IMG/VR virus record: IMGVR_UViG_3300018471_000107
Location: 1-4,285 of that record
Origin: a virus
Lineage: Duplodnaviria; Heunggongvirae; Uroviricota; Caudoviricetes
Direction: 5' to 3' (one strand)
Length of the DNA: 4,285 nt
Program-made: the position numbers and the translations under genes
Shown here: one piece after another, positions 1 through 4,285 of the stretch
Layout: each line of letters opens with the position of its first letter
Position numbering within the stretch: position 1 is the first letter of the stretch
Notes under the pieces: generated by a model
Databases searched by the model: none
Told to the model about the DNA's origin: nothing
Seen by the model: only the letters and a program-made list of their open reading frames with translations

Positions 1-209
1 CCCGTAAAATGACAGGAATTGTCAAAACCTTTGACGGCAAAAGCGGCAAGGGTCTTATCACCCCATCCGATGGTCGTATCGATGTCCAGCTTCATGTTTC
101 AGCGCTCAATCTCCGCGATGCAGAAGAAATTACCACCGGATTACGCGTGGAATTTTGCCGGATAAATGGTCTGCGTGGCCCTTCAGCTGCCAATGTTTAC
201 CTTTCATGA
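1..209 (+). CDS. cspF: Cold-shock-like protein, CspF/CspH family; 5' end probably just outside the window
   Basis: ORF 9..209 translates to [23 protein letters not shown]...[20 protein letters not shown], which matches the divergent CspF/CspH cold-shock paralogs as I recall them (degenerate RNP motifs, C-terminal GLRGP.AANVYLS). Bases 3-8 are in frame and read R-K before the ATG, consistent with the MSRKMTG N-terminus of CspF/CspH, so the true start is probably 3 nt before position 1. Stop TGA at 207-209. Symbol given by synteny with Q and ydfU as in Qin; it could equally be called cspH-like. Confidence 0.85.
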
Positions 210-263
210 GCTATATTAAAGCTTTAATTTCAGGCCCCATCGGATCACACATGGAGAGTTTTT

Positions 264-353
264 ATGAATAACCCCGTCTGTCTTGATGACTGGTTGATTG
301 GCTTTAAAAGCTTATGCTGTACTTTGGCCGTAATAGCTCTGCTAATAATATAA
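264..353 (+). CDS. Hypothetical small hydrophobic peptide (29 aa), candidate small membrane protein
   Basis: ATG at 264 is preceded by GGAGAG at 253-258 with 5 nt between the motif and the ATG (7 nt from the GGAG core). Translation is [29 protein letters not shown], stop TAA 351-353, with a hydrophobic C-terminal stretch. Not on the supplied ORF track because it is short. No homology is claimed; an AT-rich spacer can produce such ORFs by chance. Confidence 0.25.
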
Positions 354-501
354 TAAGCAGACTCATTGTGTTTAGGGACATTGTACTGGAAGAAAACATT
401 TTAAACATCAGGCAAATAACCAAGTCACCAGCTAAATAATAAGTTAACAGACATGAGTCCCGGGATGAGATTCAACATTACCATTGCCCCATTTAAAGCA
501 C

Positions 502-537
502 AAAACCCGCTCATCAGCGGGTTTTCTACTTTTTCTT
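502..537. terminator. Bidirectional intrinsic terminator; candidate tR' for the late transcript and terminator for cspF
   Basis: Stem 502-510 AAAACCCGC pairs with 517-525 GCGGGTTTT (9 bp, 5 GC pairs) around a 6-nt loop TCATCA. On the plus strand it is followed by TTTTCTACTTTTTCTT; on the minus strand by TTTT GTGCTTT. It sits between the convergent cspF and Q genes. Confidence 0.6.
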
Positions 538-558
538 AACGTCGGGTATACAAAGCCC

Positions 559-599
559 ATCGTTGAAAAAATTTTATCCATATTTTTTGAAAAATGCAA
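559..599 (-). promoter_or_regulatory. Candidate late promoter pR' with an AACGAT pause-like element in the initial transcribed region
   Basis: On the minus strand just after the Q stop: -35 TTGCAT (599..594), 17-bp spacer, -10 TAAAAT (576..571), then TTTTTC and AACGATGGG (564..556). From memory, AACGAT is the sigma70-dependent pause element of lambda pR'. The terminator at 502-525 lies about 40-60 nt further downstream. Q-binding element is not identified. Confidence 0.45.
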
Positions 600-630
600 A
601 CATCATGTCGCCATCTTCAGCAAAAATCAT

Positions 631-1383
631 TTATCTCGTCACCTTCCTCAATTGCGCTTCCGCGTATGCTTCTTCCTGCCAGCACTTTGTTACCAGTTTA
701 CCAATGACGTCCGCATACCCCTTATACCACTGATAATCGGTCAGGTCTGGTACCAGCTTCTGGACATGACGTCGTGCCAGCGTGGTCGGTAAACGACTAA
801 ATCGGTTTCCATTACAACGCCCACAAATCTTATATACCGGTACGCCATGAAACCGGGTTCTTTTTTCATCCAGAACAATCCCTTTACCCTTACACCCTCT
901 GCACGCTGTGCTGGCTTCGCCCTTACCATGGCAATGCTGACATAGTTCCTTCACCCATTCTTCCTTGATTACAGATTCCCCGCGTCTGTAGTGTTTCACC
1001 ACTTCGCGCAATACATTATAAAATCCCGTACCTGAACAATGCTCACAGCGAGCCTTACTTGCCGCAGACCTGGAGTAATCAGCAAAGGCAAAACTCACGA
1101 GGTAAGGAATAATCTGTAACCGGATTTCTTCACTCAATTTGTTCAATGTCGGGTTATCCAGTGCCATCGCGTAATTTAGCAGGCCTTCAATCGCAAACTG
1201 AGGGTCCTGAACACCAACTTTTGCCAGAAATAAGGCCAACCCAAGTGGTGCTTTCGACTGCACCATCCCCTGCGCTGCCATTACATCCGTAATTGTTAAA
1301 CAACCGGTGCCTGTCGCTGGAGCGTCATCGCTCAATTTTGGAGATTTTGGGGAGTAATATTTTGGTAAGGCTTCAAGGTTCAT
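631..1383 (-). CDS. quuQ: Antitermination protein Q, QuuQ/Phage_antitermQ type, 250 aa
   Basis: ORF 631..1413 translation matches the Q antiterminator family as I recall it. I place the start at the internal ATG 1383 (MNLEALPKYY...) because GGAGAA lies 5 nt upstream of it, whereas the track start at 1413 would overlap the upstream gene by 17 nt. This gives 250 aa and a 13-bp gap to the upstream gene, the same length and spacing I recall for quuQ and ydfU in E. coli K-12 Qin. Four CxxCxG motifs are present. Stop TAA 631-633. Confidence 0.85.
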   Translation of the reverse strand: MNLEALPKYYSPKSPKLSDDAPATGTGCLTITDVMAAQGMVQSKAPLGLALFLAKVGVQDPQFAIEGLLNYAMALDNPTLNKLSEEIRLQIIPYLVSFAFADYSRSAASKARCEHCSGTGFYNVLREVVKHYRRGESVIKEEWVKELCQHCHGKGEASTACRGCKGKGIVLDEKRTRFHGVPVYKICGRCNGNRFSRLPTTLARRHVQKLVPDLTDYQWYKGYADVIGKLVTKCWQEEAYAEAQLRKVTR

Positions 1384-1396
1384 GCTCGTTCTCCAC

Positions 1397-2392
1397 TTAC
1401 GCCAGTACGCCAATTGCCAGCGCGCGATCGATAAAACGAAATATCAGCTCCAGTTGGGAGCCATACTTCTCTTCAAATGCCACGGTATCCGCATGCAGCT
1501 CGTCGTGATGCTTTCTGCACAAAGGCAACACAAAAAGGTCATGCGCTTTTGTTCCCATTCCACCCTGACCGTGACCTATCAGGTGGTGGGGATCATCAGC
1601 AGGCTTTCCACAACATGCACACGGCTGTGTCTTAACCCAGCGCGTGTACTTTTCATTAACCCAGCGGCGACGTTTGGGGCGTAACATAAAAGACTCCGGC
1701 GACTCCGGCTCCACTTTCAGCGCCAGCACCTTTTTCGCCTTATCCTGGATGATGCTGGTGGCAGGAACCGAAGGAACAAGGTCACTTTCCCGGGTGACAG
1801 ACGGCACAACAGGCTTCGGTAATCTCAGTGCCTTACGGGCTGCACTTTCCGGTAAGGCATCCGCCAGGTCATTACGAACCAGCCACCAGCATAGTTCCGG
1901 CATTGTCACAACGTGACTATCATCAAAACCGAGATCCCGACGCACAACAGACAACACCCAGCGGGCACAGTTATCCGTTGCCATTGATTCCAGCCGTTCC
2001 GTAAACTGATCGCGCAGCTGGTTATCGCAGTGCCAGCACAGACGGATTGCACCCGGAGCGTGTCGCATTGTGGTCATGTTCTCGCTGTGCCAGTCGGAAT
2101 GAGGCCACTGGCAGCCTTTTTCACGAAGTAACCAGCTTTCAAGACATTCCACGCCACCAGCACGACGGATCACTGCCTCATCGCGGAACACGGCCCGAAC
2201 GGCAGGATCATCCGCCAGCGGTTGTGATGCCGCCGGAACGGCACCACTGGCGAAAGATGAATAACGCTCCGGCTCAGGCTCCAGCAGGACACGCCCCTGC
2301 ATAAACAGGGGCATCAGCTCTGAACCTGGCCTGAACAATACGATCCCCATACGCGGGGCAATTTCAGGGGTCAGTAGTGCTCTCACGGTCAC
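1397..2392 (-). CDS. ydfU: DUF968 family protein (YdfU-like) with a C-terminal HNH-like Cys/His cluster; putative nuclease or zinc-binding protein
   Basis: 331-codon ORF ending TAA 1397-1399. The C-terminus reads PCACCGKPADDPHHLIGHGQGGMGTKAHDLFVLPLCRKHHDELH, the Cys/His signature I associate with DUF968/YdfU prophage proteins. It sits immediately upstream of Q, as ydfU does in Qin. The track start is GTG at 2392, 1 nt after the upstream stop; GTG at 2386 with GAGGTG just upstream is a likelier start, so the start is uncertain by a few codons. Confidence 0.8.
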   Translation of the reverse strand: MTVRALLTPEIAPRMGIVLFRPGSELMPLFMQGRVLLEPEPERYSSFASGAVPAASQPLADDPAVRAVFRDEAVIRRAGGVECLESWLLREKGCQWPHSDWHSENMTTMRHAPGAIRLCWHCDNQLRDQFTERLESMATDNCARWVLSVVRRDLGFDDSHVVTMPELCWWLVRNDLADALPESAARKALRLPKPVVPSVTRESDLVPSVPATSIIQDKAKKVLALKVEPESPESFMLRPKRRRWVNEKYTRWVKTQPCACCGKPADDPHHLIGHGQGGMGTKAHDLFVLPLCRKHHDELHADTVAFEEKYGSQLELIFRFIDRALAIGVLA

Positions 2393-2393
2393 C

Positions 2394-3203
2394 TCAATGA
2401 ACGGTATCGAGCAGCTTTAACAGCTCAGTGAATCGGGATTCGAAGAAATGCGGCTGCGTCTCGCGCGGATTTGCAGGACTGGTGATGTTCTTGCCGAACA
2501 TGCAGCCTTTCGCCGTCAGCGACCAGAATTTTTTGATGTTGTTAATCGCTGTACGGCTGTATCGTTCGCGCTGTTCGACGATCCCCAGCTTCGCCATCTG
2601 GTGATATGCCTGATTAGCCGTCAGGCGGATACCATACTGCTTCAGCAGTGCACTCAGTGACAGCGTGGGGCGGCTTGAGCCATCAGGCGCGTCAGCAGGA
2701 GCATCAATGGCATAACGCGGTGCCAGATTCGGTAAGCCAACAGCCTCCTGGAGTTTCTGACAGGCCCCAAGCACAGATGAGTTAGACAGATTTAACTCCC
2801 GGCGCATAAAGTCCAGCAGAATCACGCCAGCCTGCATCTTGTCAGCAGCCTGTCCGGATAACTTTTCCGGCGCGCTGGTTACCATATCGAAAGTACGGAT
2901 CACCTTCAGATGGAATGACGGGCTGATCCACATTGCATAGGCATACACCAGTTCCTTACAGACATACGTTCCCCGTTCATTTCCCCCATGAATCACACTA
3001 ACTGGGTCAACACCCAAATTCTGGGTGTTGATTAATTCATGAACAAGATCAACAGTTTGTTGGCTGGAAAGAAACTTTCCTGGCTCCTTGGTTCTGGCAT
3101 TTGCACCAGATGCTACTGCTGCGCGATGCAGATCGTTCAGGCTGTAACGCTCATAAGCATCACGACGAACTTCAATACCATCAATGACCATCAGATTATT
3201 CAT
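2394..3203 (-). CDS. KilA-N domain-containing protein (putative phage antirepressor or DNA-binding regulator), 269 aa
   Basis: The N-terminal ~100 aa (VIDGIEVRRDAYERYSLNDL...GTYVCKELVYAYAMWISPSFHLKVI) fit the KilA-N/APSES-like pattern, including the G-T-[WY]-V and W-[IL]-S-P-x-F signature. The C-terminal ~160 aa is unassigned. Start ATG 3203 is preceded by AGAGGGGAAA; stop TGA 2394-2396. Confidence 0.8.
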   Translation of the reverse strand: MNNLMVIDGIEVRRDAYERYSLNDLHRAAVASGANARTKEPGKFLSSQQTVDLVHELINTQNLGVDPVSVIHGGNERGTYVCKELVYAYAMWISPSFHLKVIRTFDMVTSAPEKLSGQAADKMQAGVILLDFMRRELNLSNSSVLGACQKLQEAVGLPNLAPRYAIDAPADAPDGSSRPTLSLSALLKQYGIRLTANQAYHQMAKLGIVEQRERYSRTAINNIKKFWSLTAKGCMFGKNITSPANPRETQPHFFESRFTELLKLLDTVH

Positions 3204-3222
3204 ACTTCGTTTCCCCTCTTAA

Positions 3223-3321
3223 TCAGGCAGCTGCACCCGCCGTTTTCTCGTACTTACTGATAGTGATCTCGACCTTCCCTTCCGGGATAACCGGTCCCCA
3301 CTCCACCAGCATTCTTTTCAC
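3223..3321 (-). pseudogene. rusA: rusA 3' remnant: 32 in-frame codons after the internal amber codon, encoding the RusA C-terminus
   Basis: Reading through TAG at 3322-3324 in the same frame gives VKRMLVEWGPVIPEGKVEITISKYEKTAGAAA, then TGA at 3223-3225. This aligns with the RusA C-terminus as I recall it ([28 protein letters not shown]). The TGA lies 19 nt upstream of the KilA-N start and its RBS, the normal operon spacing. Confidence 0.6.
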
Positions 3322-3612
3322 CTAGCTGTCGTCTTCCCACACACCCGCGTGGGTCAGGGCGTCAAACAGCGCCTTGTTATAGTTGTCCAGATCGCGGATC
3401 CTGTTATCCGGAGGAAACAACACGATCTCCACTGAAGCAGGTGCCGACGTTGGTTTCGGCAGACGACGTAACTGCTCAACTATTGCTGCGCACGCCGCGC
3501 TCTGGAATTTTCGCCCCGCCGCGCTTATCAGGCTCTTACCAGCAAACGCCCCTTTGTTGGGGTGTCGCCAGTACGTGTTCACGCTGGGCGGAAAAGGCAG
3601 GATCAGCTTCAT
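3322..3612 (-). CDS. rusA: Crossover junction endodeoxyribonuclease RusA, truncated by a premature in-frame amber codon (96-aa product)
   Basis: Translation MKLILPFPPSVNTYWRH...DNRIRDLDNYNKALFDALTHAGVWEDDS matches RusA, including the catalytic acidic motifs RDLDN and WxDD. The ORF ends at TAG 3322-3324, at a position where E. coli RusA has Gln. Start ATG 3610-3612 overlaps the upstream stop in an ATGA arrangement. Confidence 0.8.
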   Translation of the reverse strand: MKLILPFPPSVNTYWRHPNKGAFAGKSLISAAGRKFQSAACAAIVEQLRRLPKPTSAPASVEIVLFPPDNRIRDLDNYNKALFDALTHAGVWEDDS

Positions 3613-3935
3613 ACTTTCAGGCCCCTCTCATGTAACCAGTGGGTTGCACGCAGCCTTGCGTTTTCCTCACCGGCAAGCAGTGAGCGGATAATCCCGACCG
3701 CCTCGCTGTCGTCGTCCTTCACCGCGGTATGAAGCGTGATGCCCCGGGCCACGCCACGCTTTATCGTGATGACGCCTTTTTTCTCCAGTGCGCGAAGATG
3801 CTCCACCGCTGCATTCACTGAACGGTATCCCAGCATGGTTGCCACCTCCTGATTGGTTGGCGGGAAGCCACGTTCTTTCTGATAAGAAATCAGCATATCC
3901 AGCACCTGCTGCTGGCATTGAGTTAACGTCGTCAT
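3609..3935 (-). CDS. LexA N-terminal DNA-binding domain protein lacking the S24 peptidase domain, 108 aa
   Basis: Translation MTTLTQCQQQVLDMLISYQKERGFPPTNQEVATMLGYRSVNAAVEHLRALEKKGVITIKRGVARGITL aligns closely with the LexA winged-helix domain ([66 protein letters not shown]). It is followed by a linker-like AVGIIRSLLAGEEN resembling LexA LVGRVAAGEP, then ends 20 aa later with no catalytic core. I chose ATG 3933-3935 (TAATG overlap with the upstream stop, G-rich RBS) over the track start at 3968. Stop TGA 3609-3611. Confidence 0.75.
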   Translation of the reverse strand: MTTLTQCQQQVLDMLISYQKERGFPPTNQEVATMLGYRSVNAAVEHLRALEKKGVITIKRGVARGITLHTAVKDDDSEAVGIIRSLLAGEENARLRATHWLHERGLKV

Positions 3936-4285
3936 TAAGCCCCCACGTAATTCCCTGACAGATACCACTCATCACCCGATGCAGCGCGCTTGCTGCTTTT
4001 CCGTAAGCACCGCTCACGACGCGCAAGAAAATTGTTTCGCTCTTGCTGGGAGTGGCTTTCACGGAATGCCGCCATCCACACCGTTGCAGCACGACGGTAT
4101 AAGCCCCTGGACTCCAGTTCTTCCGCCTGGCGGGTCAGGCACAAAATCTCCCGCGGGTCGTTAGTGCCGACATAGAAATTGCGCACAGGTCTGGTTTCAC
4201 GAACTGGTTGCGGTTCCGCCTCCTGCGCTCTCTCAGTCAGGCGCGGGAAATGTCTGCGTGTATCCCCTTCACAACGGTGAGCCAC
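3935..4285 (-). CDS. PerC-family transcriptional regulator (Pch-like), partial; 5' end lies beyond the right edge of the window
   Basis: The frame is open to the window edge (116 codons). It contains QAEELESRGLYRRAATVW, matching the PerC/Pch signature AE.LE..GLWRRAA..W as I recall it. Stop TAA 3935-3937 overlaps the next start. A GTG at 4184-4186 is a possible internal start but has no clear RBS. Confidence 0.6.
   Translation of the reverse strand: MAHRCEGDTRRHFPRLTERAQEAEPQPVRETRPVRNFYVGTNDPREILCLTRQAEELESRGLYRRAATVWMAAFRESHSQQERNNFLARRERCLRKSSKRAASGDEWYLSGNYVGA

What the first reader, a model, noticed from the sequence alone, without database searches (positions are those of the whole stretch)
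3609..3935. LexA DNA-binding-domain-only protein in the nin region, translationally coupled to rusA
The 108-aa product keeps the LexA winged-helix domain, including the recognition-helix residues S-x-N-A-A-x-E-H-L, and a linker resembling the LexA cleavage-site region, but it has no S24 peptidase core. It could not be self-cleaved after RecA activation. If it binds SOS-box-like operators it could act as an uncleavable LexA mimic or competitor that tunes SOS-dependent prophage or host genes. Whether it can dimerise through its short C-terminal tail is unknown. It is flanked by a PerC-like regulator and rusA with overlapping stop and start codons.
Basis: partly seen in the sequence, partly recalled or inferred. 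Interest (0 to 1): 0.65.

Follow-up and report, generated by a model that had tools for sequence, protein, structure and literature searches.

The report
Phage mini-LexA without protease domain
A very common prophage gene encodes only the DNA-binding head of the SOS repressor LexA plus a short conserved helical tail, so it probably binds SOS-type operators while being immune to the DNA-damage signal that destroys LexA. The family is already annotated in databases, but I found no experimental test of its function.

Summary
A 108-aa ORF on the minus strand (3935->3609) matches the whole LexA DNA-binding domain (PF01726, E 2.9e-19) and has no S24 peptidase domain. Its start overlaps the PerC-like stop (TAATG) and its stop overlaps the rusA start (ATGA).

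It is not a gene fragment. It belongs to a family of 103-135 aa proteins (PHROG 362; RefSeq 'LexA family transcriptional regulator'). The family occurs in 2233 of 5426 complete E. coli genomes and in SfV, mEp460, cdtI and Stx2c phages.

The C-terminal 30 residues form a predicted two-helix hairpin under purifying selection (dN/dS 0.19). The 'cleavage-site-like' Ala-Gly is not conserved and is predicted to lie in that hairpin.

The recognition helix (S-V-N-A-A-V-E-H) is identical to that of genuine betaproteobacterial LexA proteins. In one subfamily the gene sits in an operon behind a consensus SOS box, together with dinI.

My best reading (confidence about 0.45) is a RecA-insensitive, tail-dimerised SOS-box binder made from the early-right operon. 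The only characterised analogue, GIL01 gp6, is an activator with a different target site, so a diverged target remains a serious rival.

No DNA-binding or dimerisation data exist. Interest is moderate.

The parts
3609..3935 (-). mini-LexA coding sequence (108 aa; ATG 3935-3933, TGA 3611-3609)
   Evidence: PF01726 2.9e-19; PHROG 362 1.1e-59 over its full length; RefSeq homologue WP_000210185.1 'LexA family protein' has the same length
3732..3935 (-). winged helix-turn-helix domain, residues 1-68 (H6-22, H28-35, H40-52, strands 56-58 and 66-68)
   Evidence: AF2 model, pLDDT 77-88 across this part; Foldseek 3jso_B rmsd 0.9 A over 68 aa, 50% identity
3795..3821 (-). recognition helix core S39 V40 N41 A42 A43 V44 E45 H46 L47
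   Evidence: read directly from the sequence. LexA base contacts are S39, N41, A42, E44, E45 (PMC3091678). S39 and N41 are invariant and A42 is near-invariant (142 of 145) in 145 unique family sequences. The same S-V-N-A-A-V-E-H occurs in full-length betaproteobacterial LexA
3738..3746 (-). wing residues R64-G65-I66, invariant in the family and shared with E. coli LexA
3708..3731 (-). variable, low-confidence linker (residues 69-76)
   Evidence: pLDDT below 50 for residues 71-75; high column entropy; dN/dS 0.29 in the mEp390-type subfamily
3612..3707 (-). conserved C-terminal two-helix hairpin (residues 77-108; helices 75-88 and 93-103); putative dimerisation module
   Evidence: pLDDT about 90; conserved hydrophobic positions V80, I82, I83, L86, L87, A97, W100, L101; dN/dS 0.19; no match to any solved fold. 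Dimerisation is inferred, not shown
3669..3674 (-). Ala88-Gly89, which aligns with the LexA cleavage site Ala84-Gly85; not a family trait
   Evidence: aligned; Ala in only 23 of 143 and Gly in 97 of 143 unique family sequences; lies at the end of helix 75-88 in the model
3933..3937 (-). TAATG junction: the PerC-like stop codon overlaps the mini-LexA start codon by one base
   Evidence: in SfV the Dam cassette starts at this same TAATGA junction
3609..3612 (-). ATGA junction: the mini-LexA stop overlaps the rusA start by four bases, with a GAGGGG Shine-Dalgarno-like motif upstream
   Evidence: the same overlap is present in SfV, mEp460 and the 47%-identical mEp390 homologue
3935..4285 (-). upstream neighbour: PerC-family gene (5' end cut off by the window edge)
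   Evidence: PF06069 6.7e-10; PHROG 2608/1324 'transcriptional activator'
3223..3612 (-). downstream neighbour: rusA, interrupted by an in-frame TAG at 3322-3324 (CAG in relatives)

Best explanation
The gene encodes a 'mini-LexA': a LexA-type winged-helix DNA-binding domain joined by a short flexible linker to a conserved two-helix hairpin.

Proposed mechanism:
1. The gene is transcribed with the early-right (cro -> replication -> nin -> Q) operon after infection or prophage induction. It is silent in the repressed lysogen. This is inferred from gene order and from the lack of its own promoter.
2. The hairpin pairs two chains, probably as a four-helix bundle. This step is inferred.
3. The two LexA-type recognition helices bind CTGT-type half-sites of SOS boxes. 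This step is inferred from residue identity.
4. With no S24 domain and no RecA*-binding surface, the protein is not inactivated by DNA damage. This follows directly from the domain composition.

The net effect would be to re-impose repression on LexA-controlled promoters while host LexA is being destroyed. Those promoters include host SOS genes, the phage's own SOS-box genes such as dinI, and LexA-controlled antirepressors of co-resident prophages.
For: - Domain content: the whole LexA DNA-binding domain is present and no S24 domain is. The model fits the DNA-bound LexA structure at 0.9 A.
- Recognition residues: four of the five LexA base-contact residues are kept (S39, N41, A42, E45; PMC3091678). 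The fifth (E44V) and the whole S-V-N-A-A-V-E-H helix are identical in bona fide full-length LexA proteins of Betaproteobacteria that have VAAG, GNSM and VKR motifs. Those genes have CTGT-N8-ACAG boxes 0.5-1.2 kb upstream.
- The tail is functional: conserved amphipathic pattern, confident hairpin, and dN/dS 0.19 against 0.22 for the DNA-binding domain in 68 unique sequences.
- Dimerisation is what a LexA head needs. In the LexA-based bacterial two-hybrid assay, the isolated DNA-binding domain does not repress sulA-lacZ, but it does when fused to any dimerising partner (PMC7595419).
- SOS context in relatives. In 25 of 34 loci of the P0138 subfamily a near-consensus SOS box lies 0.44-0.73 kb upstream of the gene. 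In L129 the box overlaps a TTGAAC-17-TATACT promoter driving dinI (PF06183, 1e-23) - orf101 - mini-LexA, and is preceded by a second SOS box with a UmuD'-like ORF.
- mEp460 and mEp390 also carry SOS-boxed dinI genes.
- Spacing: CTGT-N8-ACAG is the enriched spacing in loci of two subfamilies (8 against 1.6 expected, and 49 against 4.0 expected).
- Operon placement: codons overlap on both sides, no promoter-like site was found upstream, and no minus-strand terminator-like site lies within or beside the gene. The genes are contiguous and co-directional from cro to Q in relatives.
Against: - There are no binding, dimerisation or expression data for any member in the literature I could search.
- The window has no SOS box: 20 loose matches against 17.9 expected, and none at 9 bits or more. 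The closest prophage has none at 12 bits or more in 28 kb. Targets would therefore have to be elsewhere in the genome.
- Residue 45, a base contact in LexA, is A, L, D, S or T in other subfamilies, including the L112-L129 group that sits behind the SOS box. Residue 44 is never Glu, and LexA Arg28 is Asn here.
- The upstream SOS box in the P0138 subfamily may simply serve host LexA control of dinI.
- The loci are related, so the counts are not independent.
- pTM is only 0.55, and only a monomer could be modelled.
- The only characterised phage LexA-head-only protein, GIL01 gp6, activates a late promoter at a non-SOS palindrome (PMC6182141).
Confidence: 0.45

Rival explanations
1. Phage-specific regulator with a diverged target, as in GIL01 gp6. 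The LexA-derived head has been retargeted, through changed residues or changed half-site spacing imposed by the new tail, to a phage operator. There it activates or represses phage genes such as late, methylase or nin genes, with no effect on the host SOS regulon.
For: GIL01 gp6 is a truncated LexA homologue that binds GaCACAnnTGTGaC and activates the late promoter P3. Residues 44 and 45 vary between subfamilies. The dimerisation geometry must differ from that of LexA. PHROGs and RefSeq call the family only a generic regulator.
Against: In the window's subfamily the recognition helix is identical to that of real LexA proteins. No gp6-type site was found (one 2-mismatch match, which 35 of 200 shuffles also give). 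No operator-like palindrome lies next to the gene. No spacing other than N=8 stands out in the E. coli-type loci.
Confidence: 0.25
2. Non-transcriptional DNA-binding accessory of the neighbouring DNA-transaction enzymes. The protein would target, time or shield the action of the upstream DNA methyltransferase and/or the downstream RusA resolvase and DUF968 HNH nuclease.
For: Conserved gene linkage. RusA lies directly downstream in 137 of 188 loci that do not end at a contig edge, usually with overlapping codons, even at 45-50% protein identity. DUF968 lies within 4.5 kb in most loci (179 DUF968-labelled ORFs across 191 loci). A DNA methyltransferase from five unrelated Pfam families lies directly upstream in about 135 of 191 loci.
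Against: nin regions are mosaics of 'slots', so linkage may be positional. No control set without the gene was analysed. The window and its close relatives have no methylase upstream, and here rusA is amber-truncated while the mini-LexA gene is intact. No domain suggests protein-protein docking.
Confidence: 0.12
3. SOS inducer or competitor. A weakly dimerising or monomeric head competes with LexA for half-sites without repressing, or forms mixed complexes on DNA, and so loosens SOS repression.
For: The isolated LexA head can still recognise operators and pairs up on DNA (my own knowledge of the work of Kim and Little, not checked here). The gene is expressed with lytic genes, when more SOS might help the phage.
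Against: The isolated head is too weak to repress or compete in vivo. The conserved, selected tail argues for an added function such as oligomerisation. The phages that carry the gene also carry dinI, which damps SOS rather than raising it.
Confidence: 0.08
4. Decaying remnant of a full-length lexA- or cI-like gene, with no function of its own.
For: The neighbouring rusA is a pseudogene in this window, and the prophage resembles the cryptic Qin type.
Against: Length is conserved at 103-135 aa in many lineages, including inducible phages (SfV, mEp460, mEp390, Stx2c phages). dN/dS is about 0.2 over the whole gene. rusA starts four bases before the stop, so there is no room for an S24 remnant.
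Confidence: 0.03

Closest known systems
LexA, the SOS master repressor (E. coli LexA; PF01726 + PF00717; TIGR00498)
   Same: Same N-terminal winged-helix fold (0.9 A to PDB 3jso) and 44-50% identity over residues 1-69. It keeps S39, N41, A42, E45 and the wing residues R64-G65-I66. The recognition helix is identical to that of betaproteobacterial LexA proteins.
   Different: There is no S24 peptidase/dimerisation domain and no Ser119/Lys156. The score is below the TIGR00498 cutoff. The protein cannot self-cleave or dock on RecA*. It ends in an unrelated 30-residue helical hairpin. It is encoded in the early operon of a prophage rather than in an autoregulated chromosomal gene.
GIL01 / Bam35 gp6, a truncated LexA homologue of Bacillus tectiviruses (PMC6182141)
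   Same: A phage-encoded protein consisting essentially of a LexA DNA-binding domain. It is expressed early in the lytic programme and sits in a phage whose switch is wired to the host SOS system.
   Different: gp6 is modelled as a winged-helix domain alone: its 14-residue C-terminal extension forms the wing, and no helical tail is described. It recognises GaCACAnnTGTGaC through Lys38 and activates the late promoter. The family here is enterobacterial, keeps the LexA-type S-x-N-A-A-x-E-H helix, has a conserved tail and lies in a lambdoid nin region. I did not align the gp6 sequence itself.
Engineered LexA-DBD fusions of the LexA-based bacterial one- and two-hybrid system (Dmitrova 1998; Daines and Silver 2000, as described in PMC7595419)
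   Same: LexA head plus a heterologous dimerisation module gives a RecA-insensitive repressor of the sulA operator. This is the architecture proposed here.
   Different: The engineered fusions are artificial. Here the module is a natural 30-residue hairpin whose dimerisation is unproven.
Non-cleavable LexA alleles (lexA3/Ind-, S119A, K156A)
   Same: The expected phenotype is the same: an SOS regulon that cannot be induced while the protein is present. This rests on my own knowledge; a lexA3 allele used to block SOS is mentioned in a preprint abstract listed.
   Different: Those alleles are full-length LexA proteins with point mutations. This is a separate, mobile, conditionally expressed gene.
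Other mobile-element SOS modulators: DinI homologues, GIL01 gp7
   Same: Prophage-borne factors that blunt or reshape the SOS response. dinI is found in the same phages and, in one subfamily, in the same operon. gp7 stabilises LexA on DNA.
   Different: Those factors act on RecA* or on LexA protein, not by occupying operators themselves.

Membership tests
LexA repressor (TIGR00498 equivalog) | N-terminal LexA winged-helix DNA-binding domain (PF01726) | tested here: met
   E 2.9e-19, profile positions 1-65 of 65; structural match to 3jso at 0.9 A
LexA repressor (TIGR00498 equivalog) | C-terminal S24 peptidase/dimerisation domain with catalytic Ser and Lys | tested here: not met
   No PF00717 hit at E<=1. 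The protein ends at residue 108 and rusA starts 4 nt before the stop
LexA repressor (TIGR00498 equivalog) | Whole-protein score above the curated cutoff | tested here: not met
   70.8 bits against a cutoff of 110.95; only model positions 1-91 of 203 aligned
LexA repressor (TIGR00498 equivalog) | Conserved Ala-Gly cleavage site in an exposed strand or loop | tested here: not met
   A88-G89 aligns with LexA A84-G85. Ala is present in only 23 of 143 and Gly in 97 of 143 unique family sequences, and the pair is modelled at a helix end
LexA repressor (TIGR00498 equivalog) | Binds CTGT-N8-ACAG SOS boxes as a dimer | not testable with these tools
   Indirect evidence only: recognition-helix identity and SOS-box context in one subfamily
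Enterobacterial phage LexA-DBD-only family (PHROG 362; RefSeq 'LexA family transcriptional regulator', about 106-108 aa) | Full-length match to the family profile | tested here: met
   PHROG 362 at 1.1e-59, residues 1-108 against profile 1-106 of 106; 95-99% identity to database clusters of 2527, 782 and 374 members; identical at the amino-acid level in phages SKA5, Kati and Stx2c phages
Enterobacterial phage LexA-DBD-only family (PHROG 362; RefSeq 'LexA family transcriptional regulator', about 106-108 aa) | Conserved C-terminal two-helix tail | tested here: met
Enterobacterial phage LexA-DBD-only family (PHROG 362; RefSeq 'LexA family transcriptional regulator', about 106-108 aa) | Position in the lambdoid early-right/nin region directly upstream of rusA (or DUF968) | tested here: met
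   Window order is PerC - mini-LexA - rusA - KilA-N - DUF968 - Q. RusA is downstream in 137 and DUF968 in 22 of 188 loci
GIL01 gp6-type truncated LexA homologue (late-gene activator) | Protein consists essentially of a LexA DNA-binding domain | tested here: met
   here there is an extra helical tail
GIL01 gp6-type truncated LexA homologue (late-gene activator) | gp6 palindrome GaCACAnnTGTGaC overlapping the -35 of a late promoter | tested here: not met
   One 2-mismatch match, inside the DUF968 gene; 35 of 200 shuffles do as well
GIL01 gp6-type truncated LexA homologue (late-gene activator) | Sequence orthology to gp6, including the DNA-contacting Lys38 | not tested
The family here keeps the LexA-type S-x-N-A-A-x-E-H helix
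GIL01 gp6-type truncated LexA homologue (late-gene activator) | Activates transcription | not testable with these tools
   Needs reporter or in vitro transcription assays

The most novel reading that the evidence does not exclude
A prophage-borne, RecA-proof mini-LexA that is switched on with the lytic programme and re-silences the SOS regulon while host LexA is being destroyed. This would shut down host SOS functions and, above all, the LexA-controlled antirepressors or toxins of rival prophages and plasmids in the same cell. It would be an operator-level 'SOS hijack' used in competition between mobile elements, present in about 40% of E. coli genomes and in Stx2c phages.
Probability: 0.25. 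Interest if true: 0.7.

Novelty: new variant of a known kind. Interest (0 to 1): 0.45.

Why it matters
The SOS response controls prophage induction, Shiga-toxin release, colicins, mutagenesis and antibiotic tolerance in E. coli. A damage-insensitive LexA look-alike is carried by 41% of complete E. coli genomes, in up to four copies, and by Stx2c, cdtI and Shigella serotype-converting phages.

If it binds SOS boxes, an induced prophage could reshape the SOS programme of its host cell. It could also decide which co-resident prophages or SOS-controlled toxins fire. Natural proteins of this type would be ready-made, minimal, non-cleavable SOS repressors for synthetic biology.

If it has been retargeted instead, it is a second, independent case after GIL01 gp6 of phages recycling the LexA head as a private regulator.

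Either outcome can be tested with simple reporter and EMSA experiments.

Tried and rejected
- SOS boxes or other operators in the window: none beyond chance.
- A dedicated promoter for the gene: none found on the minus strand. The weak '-35/-10' annotated inside SfV orf40 is conserved in sequence but is a poor match.
- Gene-fragment hypothesis: rejected on conservation and dN/dS.
- Functional cleavage-site mimic, for example cleavage in trans by LexA: considered. The Ala-Gly is not conserved and is modelled in a helix, so I do not favour it.
- Anti-phage defence link: only marginal PADLOC hits.
- Structural relatives of the tail: Foldseek against the PDB and BFVD matched only the winged-helix part. 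BlaI/MecI-type hits (2g9w) were weak, at E 7e-3 and rmsd 8 A. The AlphaFold-database library was unavailable.
- The search for related loci with alignments failed because no conserved 7-10-column stretch existed, so I used single seeds instead.
- Literature on the function of this enterobacterial family: nothing found. The LexA-DNA structure paper and the LexA review were not held.
- A homodimer model could not be made because the tool folds single chains only.
Full report
**1. What is there**

All genes of the window except a cspF-like gene (9-209, + strand) lie on the minus strand. In the direction of transcription the order is:
- PerC-like gene (4285..3935, cut off by the window edge)
- the 108-aa ORF (3935..3609)
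- rusA (3612..3322)
- a KilA-N protein (3203..2394)
- a DUF968/HNH protein (2392..1397)
- an antiterminator Q (1413..631)

The 108-aa product matches the complete LexA DNA-binding domain profile (PF01726, E 2.9e-19, positions 1-65 of 65). It gives no S24 peptidase hit even at E<=1. The NCBI lexA equivalog aligns only its first 91 of 203 positions and scores below its cutoff. The best solved relatives are the E. coli LexA DNA-binding domain and full-length LexA.

The recognition helix reads S39-V-N-A-A-V-E-H-L47 (nt 3795-3821). The PerC stop and the ORF start share one base (TAATG). The ORF stop and the rusA start share four (ATGA).

**2. It is a stand-alone, widespread and already annotated family**

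- PHROG 362 ('transcriptional repressor', 106 positions) matches end to end at 1e-59.
- The protein database holds clusters of 2527, 782 and 374 near-identical members, all 106-108 aa with only PF01726. NCBI names them 'LexA family transcriptional regulator'. They come from E. coli, Salmonella, Citrobacter and Hafnia.
- The gene is in 2233 of 5426 complete E. coli genomes, with up to four copies each.
- It is in 61 phage records, including SfV, SfII, SfIV, mEp460, cdtI and 18 Stx2/Stx2c-converting phages. There it is variously called 'LexA DNA binding domain protein' or 'LexA-like protein'.
- A survey of Stx phages lists it as pham 237 without any functional comment.
- An exhaustive HMMER search found full-length relatives of 105-135 aa at 38-52% identity with the same architecture.
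- BFVD holds many further phage proteins made of a LexA head alone.

**3. Anatomy**

An AlphaFold2 model (mean pLDDT 82.9) gives the LexA winged helix (helices 6-22, 28-35 and 40-52; strands 56-58 and 66-68). A low-confidence linker follows (residues 69-75), then two confident helices (75-88 and 93-103). Residues 1-68 superpose on the DNA-bound LexA structure 3jso at 0.9 A. The tail matches no solved fold.

In 145 unique family sequences the tail keeps hydrophobic residues at V80, I82, I83, L86, L87, A97, W100 and L101. That is more than a lone hairpin needs, which suggests a buried interface such as a dimeric four-helix bundle. This is inference.

In 68 unique coding sequences of the mEp390-type subfamily, dN/dS is 0.19 for the tail, 0.22 for the head and 0.29 for the linker. 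The tail is therefore functional, and the gene is not a truncated remnant.

The Ala88-Gly89 pair that aligns with the LexA cleavage site is not conserved. Ala is present in 23 of 143 sequences, and close Citrobacter relatives read LLANEE. It sits at the end of a predicted helix. The 'cleavage-site-like linker' is thus an alignment coincidence or a relic, not a family feature.

**4. DNA specificity**

LexA contacts bases through S39, N41, A42, E44 and E45 (PMC3091678). The window protein keeps four of these and has Val at position 44.

A scan of one genome per species happened to retrieve four genuine full-length LexA proteins of Betaproteobacteria. They are 201-232 aa and carry the VAAG, GNSM and VKR motifs. 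Their recognition helix is the same S-V-N-A-A-V-E-H, and CTGT-N8-ACAG boxes lie 0.5-1.2 kb upstream of their genes. Val44 is therefore compatible with a normal LexA.

Across the mini-LexA family, S39 and N41 are invariant and A42 is near-invariant (142 of 145 unique sequences). Position 44 is never Glu. Position 45 is Glu in the window's subfamily but Ala, Leu, Asp, Ser or Thr in others. Specificity may therefore have drifted in parts of the family.

**5. Context**

I collected 191 loci and labelled their neighbours.
- Directly downstream lies RusA in 137 of 188 loci that do not end at a contig edge, and DUF968 in 22.
- The four-base overlap with rusA persists in the 47%-identical mEp390 homologue.
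- Directly upstream lies a DNA methyltransferase in about 135 of the 191 loci, drawn from five unrelated Pfam families (PF05869, PF00145, PF05063, PF02086, PF01555).
- The window belongs to a minority in which the methylase is missing. In SfV the Dam cassette begins at exactly the same TAATGA junction.
- No promoter-like site precedes the gene and no minus-strand terminator-like site lies within or beside it.
- In relatives the genes run contiguously from cro to Q.

I therefore infer expression from the early-right operon during lytic growth, not in the lysogen. This fits the fact that four in ten E. coli strains carry the gene without being known as SOS-blind (inference).

**6. Links to the SOS system**

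It finds nothing at 12 bits or more in 28 kb of the closest prophage.

Other carriers do have strong boxes:
- upstream of dinI homologues in mEp460 and mEp390
- at the 5' end of a late-region methylase in SfV and mEp460, and in the equivalent position (3-5.5 kb downstream of the mini-LexA gene) in other carriers
- inside the linker-coding part of S24-type cI genes

In 25 of 34 loci of the P0138 subfamily a near-consensus box lies 0.44-0.73 kb upstream of the mini-LexA ORF. In L129 that box overlaps a TTGAAC-17-TATACT promoter that drives dinI - orf101 - mini-LexA - orf67 - DUF968 - Q. Just before it lie a second SOS box with a UmuD'-like ORF and a terminator. The phage's CI-like repressor there has no S24 domain.

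CTGT-N8-ACAG is enriched in two subfamilies' loci: 8 against 1.6 expected, and 49 against 4.0 expected. The loci are related, so these are not independent counts.

This places the family among SOS-modulating accessory genes, but it does not prove operator binding.

**7. Mechanism and rivals**

In the standard LexA-based two-hybrid assay, the isolated LexA head does not repress sulA. It does so as soon as it is fused to a dimerising partner (PMC7595419). A natural LexA head with a conserved, selected and probably self-associating tail is therefore most simply read as a RecA-insensitive SOS-box repressor (confidence 0.45).

The main rival (0.25) is retargeting to a private phage operator. That is what was shown for the only characterised analogue, GIL01 gp6, which activates the late promoter P3 at GaCACAnnTGTGaC (PMC6182141). 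No such site and no nearby palindrome is present here.

An accessory role for the flanking methylase, RusA or DUF968 enzymes (0.12) rests on linkage alone. A competitor that loosens SOS repression (0.08) and a dead remnant (0.03) are unlikely.

**8. Novelty and verdict**

The gene's existence and domain content are already in the databases. Its function is untested in all the literature I could search.

Relative to gp6 it is a distinct variant. It is enterobacterial and lambdoid, it has a LexA-identical recognition helix, and it has its own conserved tail.

It is worth a simple experiment because of its prevalence and its presence in Stx phages, but it is not a categorically new kind of element. 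Interest 0.45.

Noticed in passing
window 3322-3324 (minus strand), with the ORFs 3322-3612 and 3223-3321: rusA is interrupted by an in-frame amber codon: TAG here, CAG (Gln97) in E. coli CH4799 and in SfV. The ORF stops after 96 of 129 codons and the rest follows in frame. The flanking mini-LexA gene is intact.
   Followed up: yes
window 3925-3940; L002 (SfV) 29600-29625: Most relatives carry a Dam-type methylase between the PerC-like gene and the mini-LexA gene. The window lacks it. In SfV the cassette begins at exactly the same GGGGGCTTAATGA junction, so it looks like a precise cassette gain or loss at overlapping stop/start codons.
   Followed up: partly
related loci, e.g. L012 2126-4006, L092 599-1291, L190 5109-5996, L173 2329-3420, L002 29614-30267: The gene directly upstream of the mini-LexA gene is a DNA methyltransferase in about 70% of 191 loci. 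These come from five unrelated Pfam families (PF00145, PF05063, PF02086, PF01555, PF05869). I did not resolve whether this is a positional 'slot' effect or a functional coupling.
   Followed up: partly
L129 4829-7911 (IMG/VR contig 3300011204_000010); similar in L103-L126 and L136: An SOS-boxed accessory block sits inside a nin region. One SOS box precedes a UmuD'-like ORF and a terminator. A second SOS box overlaps a promoter for dinI - orf101 (no Pfam match) - mini-LexA - orf67 - DUF968 - Q. The CI-like repressor of this phage (126 aa) has no S24 domain, so orf101 could be an SOS-induced antirepressor.
   Followed up: partly
L002 34170-34189; L003 41021-41040; L005 3136-3155; L003 31970-31989: Near-consensus SOS boxes are embedded in coding sequence, and those I read out encode Thr-Val-x-x-Asn-Ser. 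One lies just after the start codon of a late-region DNA methyltransferase (SfV and mEp460; boxes in the equivalent position occur in other carriers). The other lies in the inter-domain linker of S24-type cI genes.
   Followed up: partly
proteins P0132, P0149, P0152, P0153, P0155 and others: Several database proteins contain two LexA DNA-binding domains in tandem and no peptidase domain. This may be a single-chain alternative to dimerisation.
   Followed up: no
L014-L021 6001-6477: A longer (158-aa) LexA-head-only variant has a different C-terminal extension but the same neighbours (C5 methylase upstream; RusA and KilA-N downstream). This suggests that different tails are attached to the same head.
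   Followed up: no
window 495-532: A symmetric hairpin (17-nt arms, GC-rich core, with an A-run on one side and a T-run on the other) lies between the convergent cspF-like gene and Q. It looks like a bidirectional intrinsic terminator.
   Followed up: no
window 1-4285 compared with E. coli complete genomes: The best full-length match among 5426 complete E. coli genomes is only 96.3% identical. The rusA segment, however, is about 99% identical to that same genome, and the mini-LexA gene is 100% identical to strain 120899. This is typical lambdoid mosaicism. The late side (cspF, cspB) is of the Qin type.
   Followed up: partly
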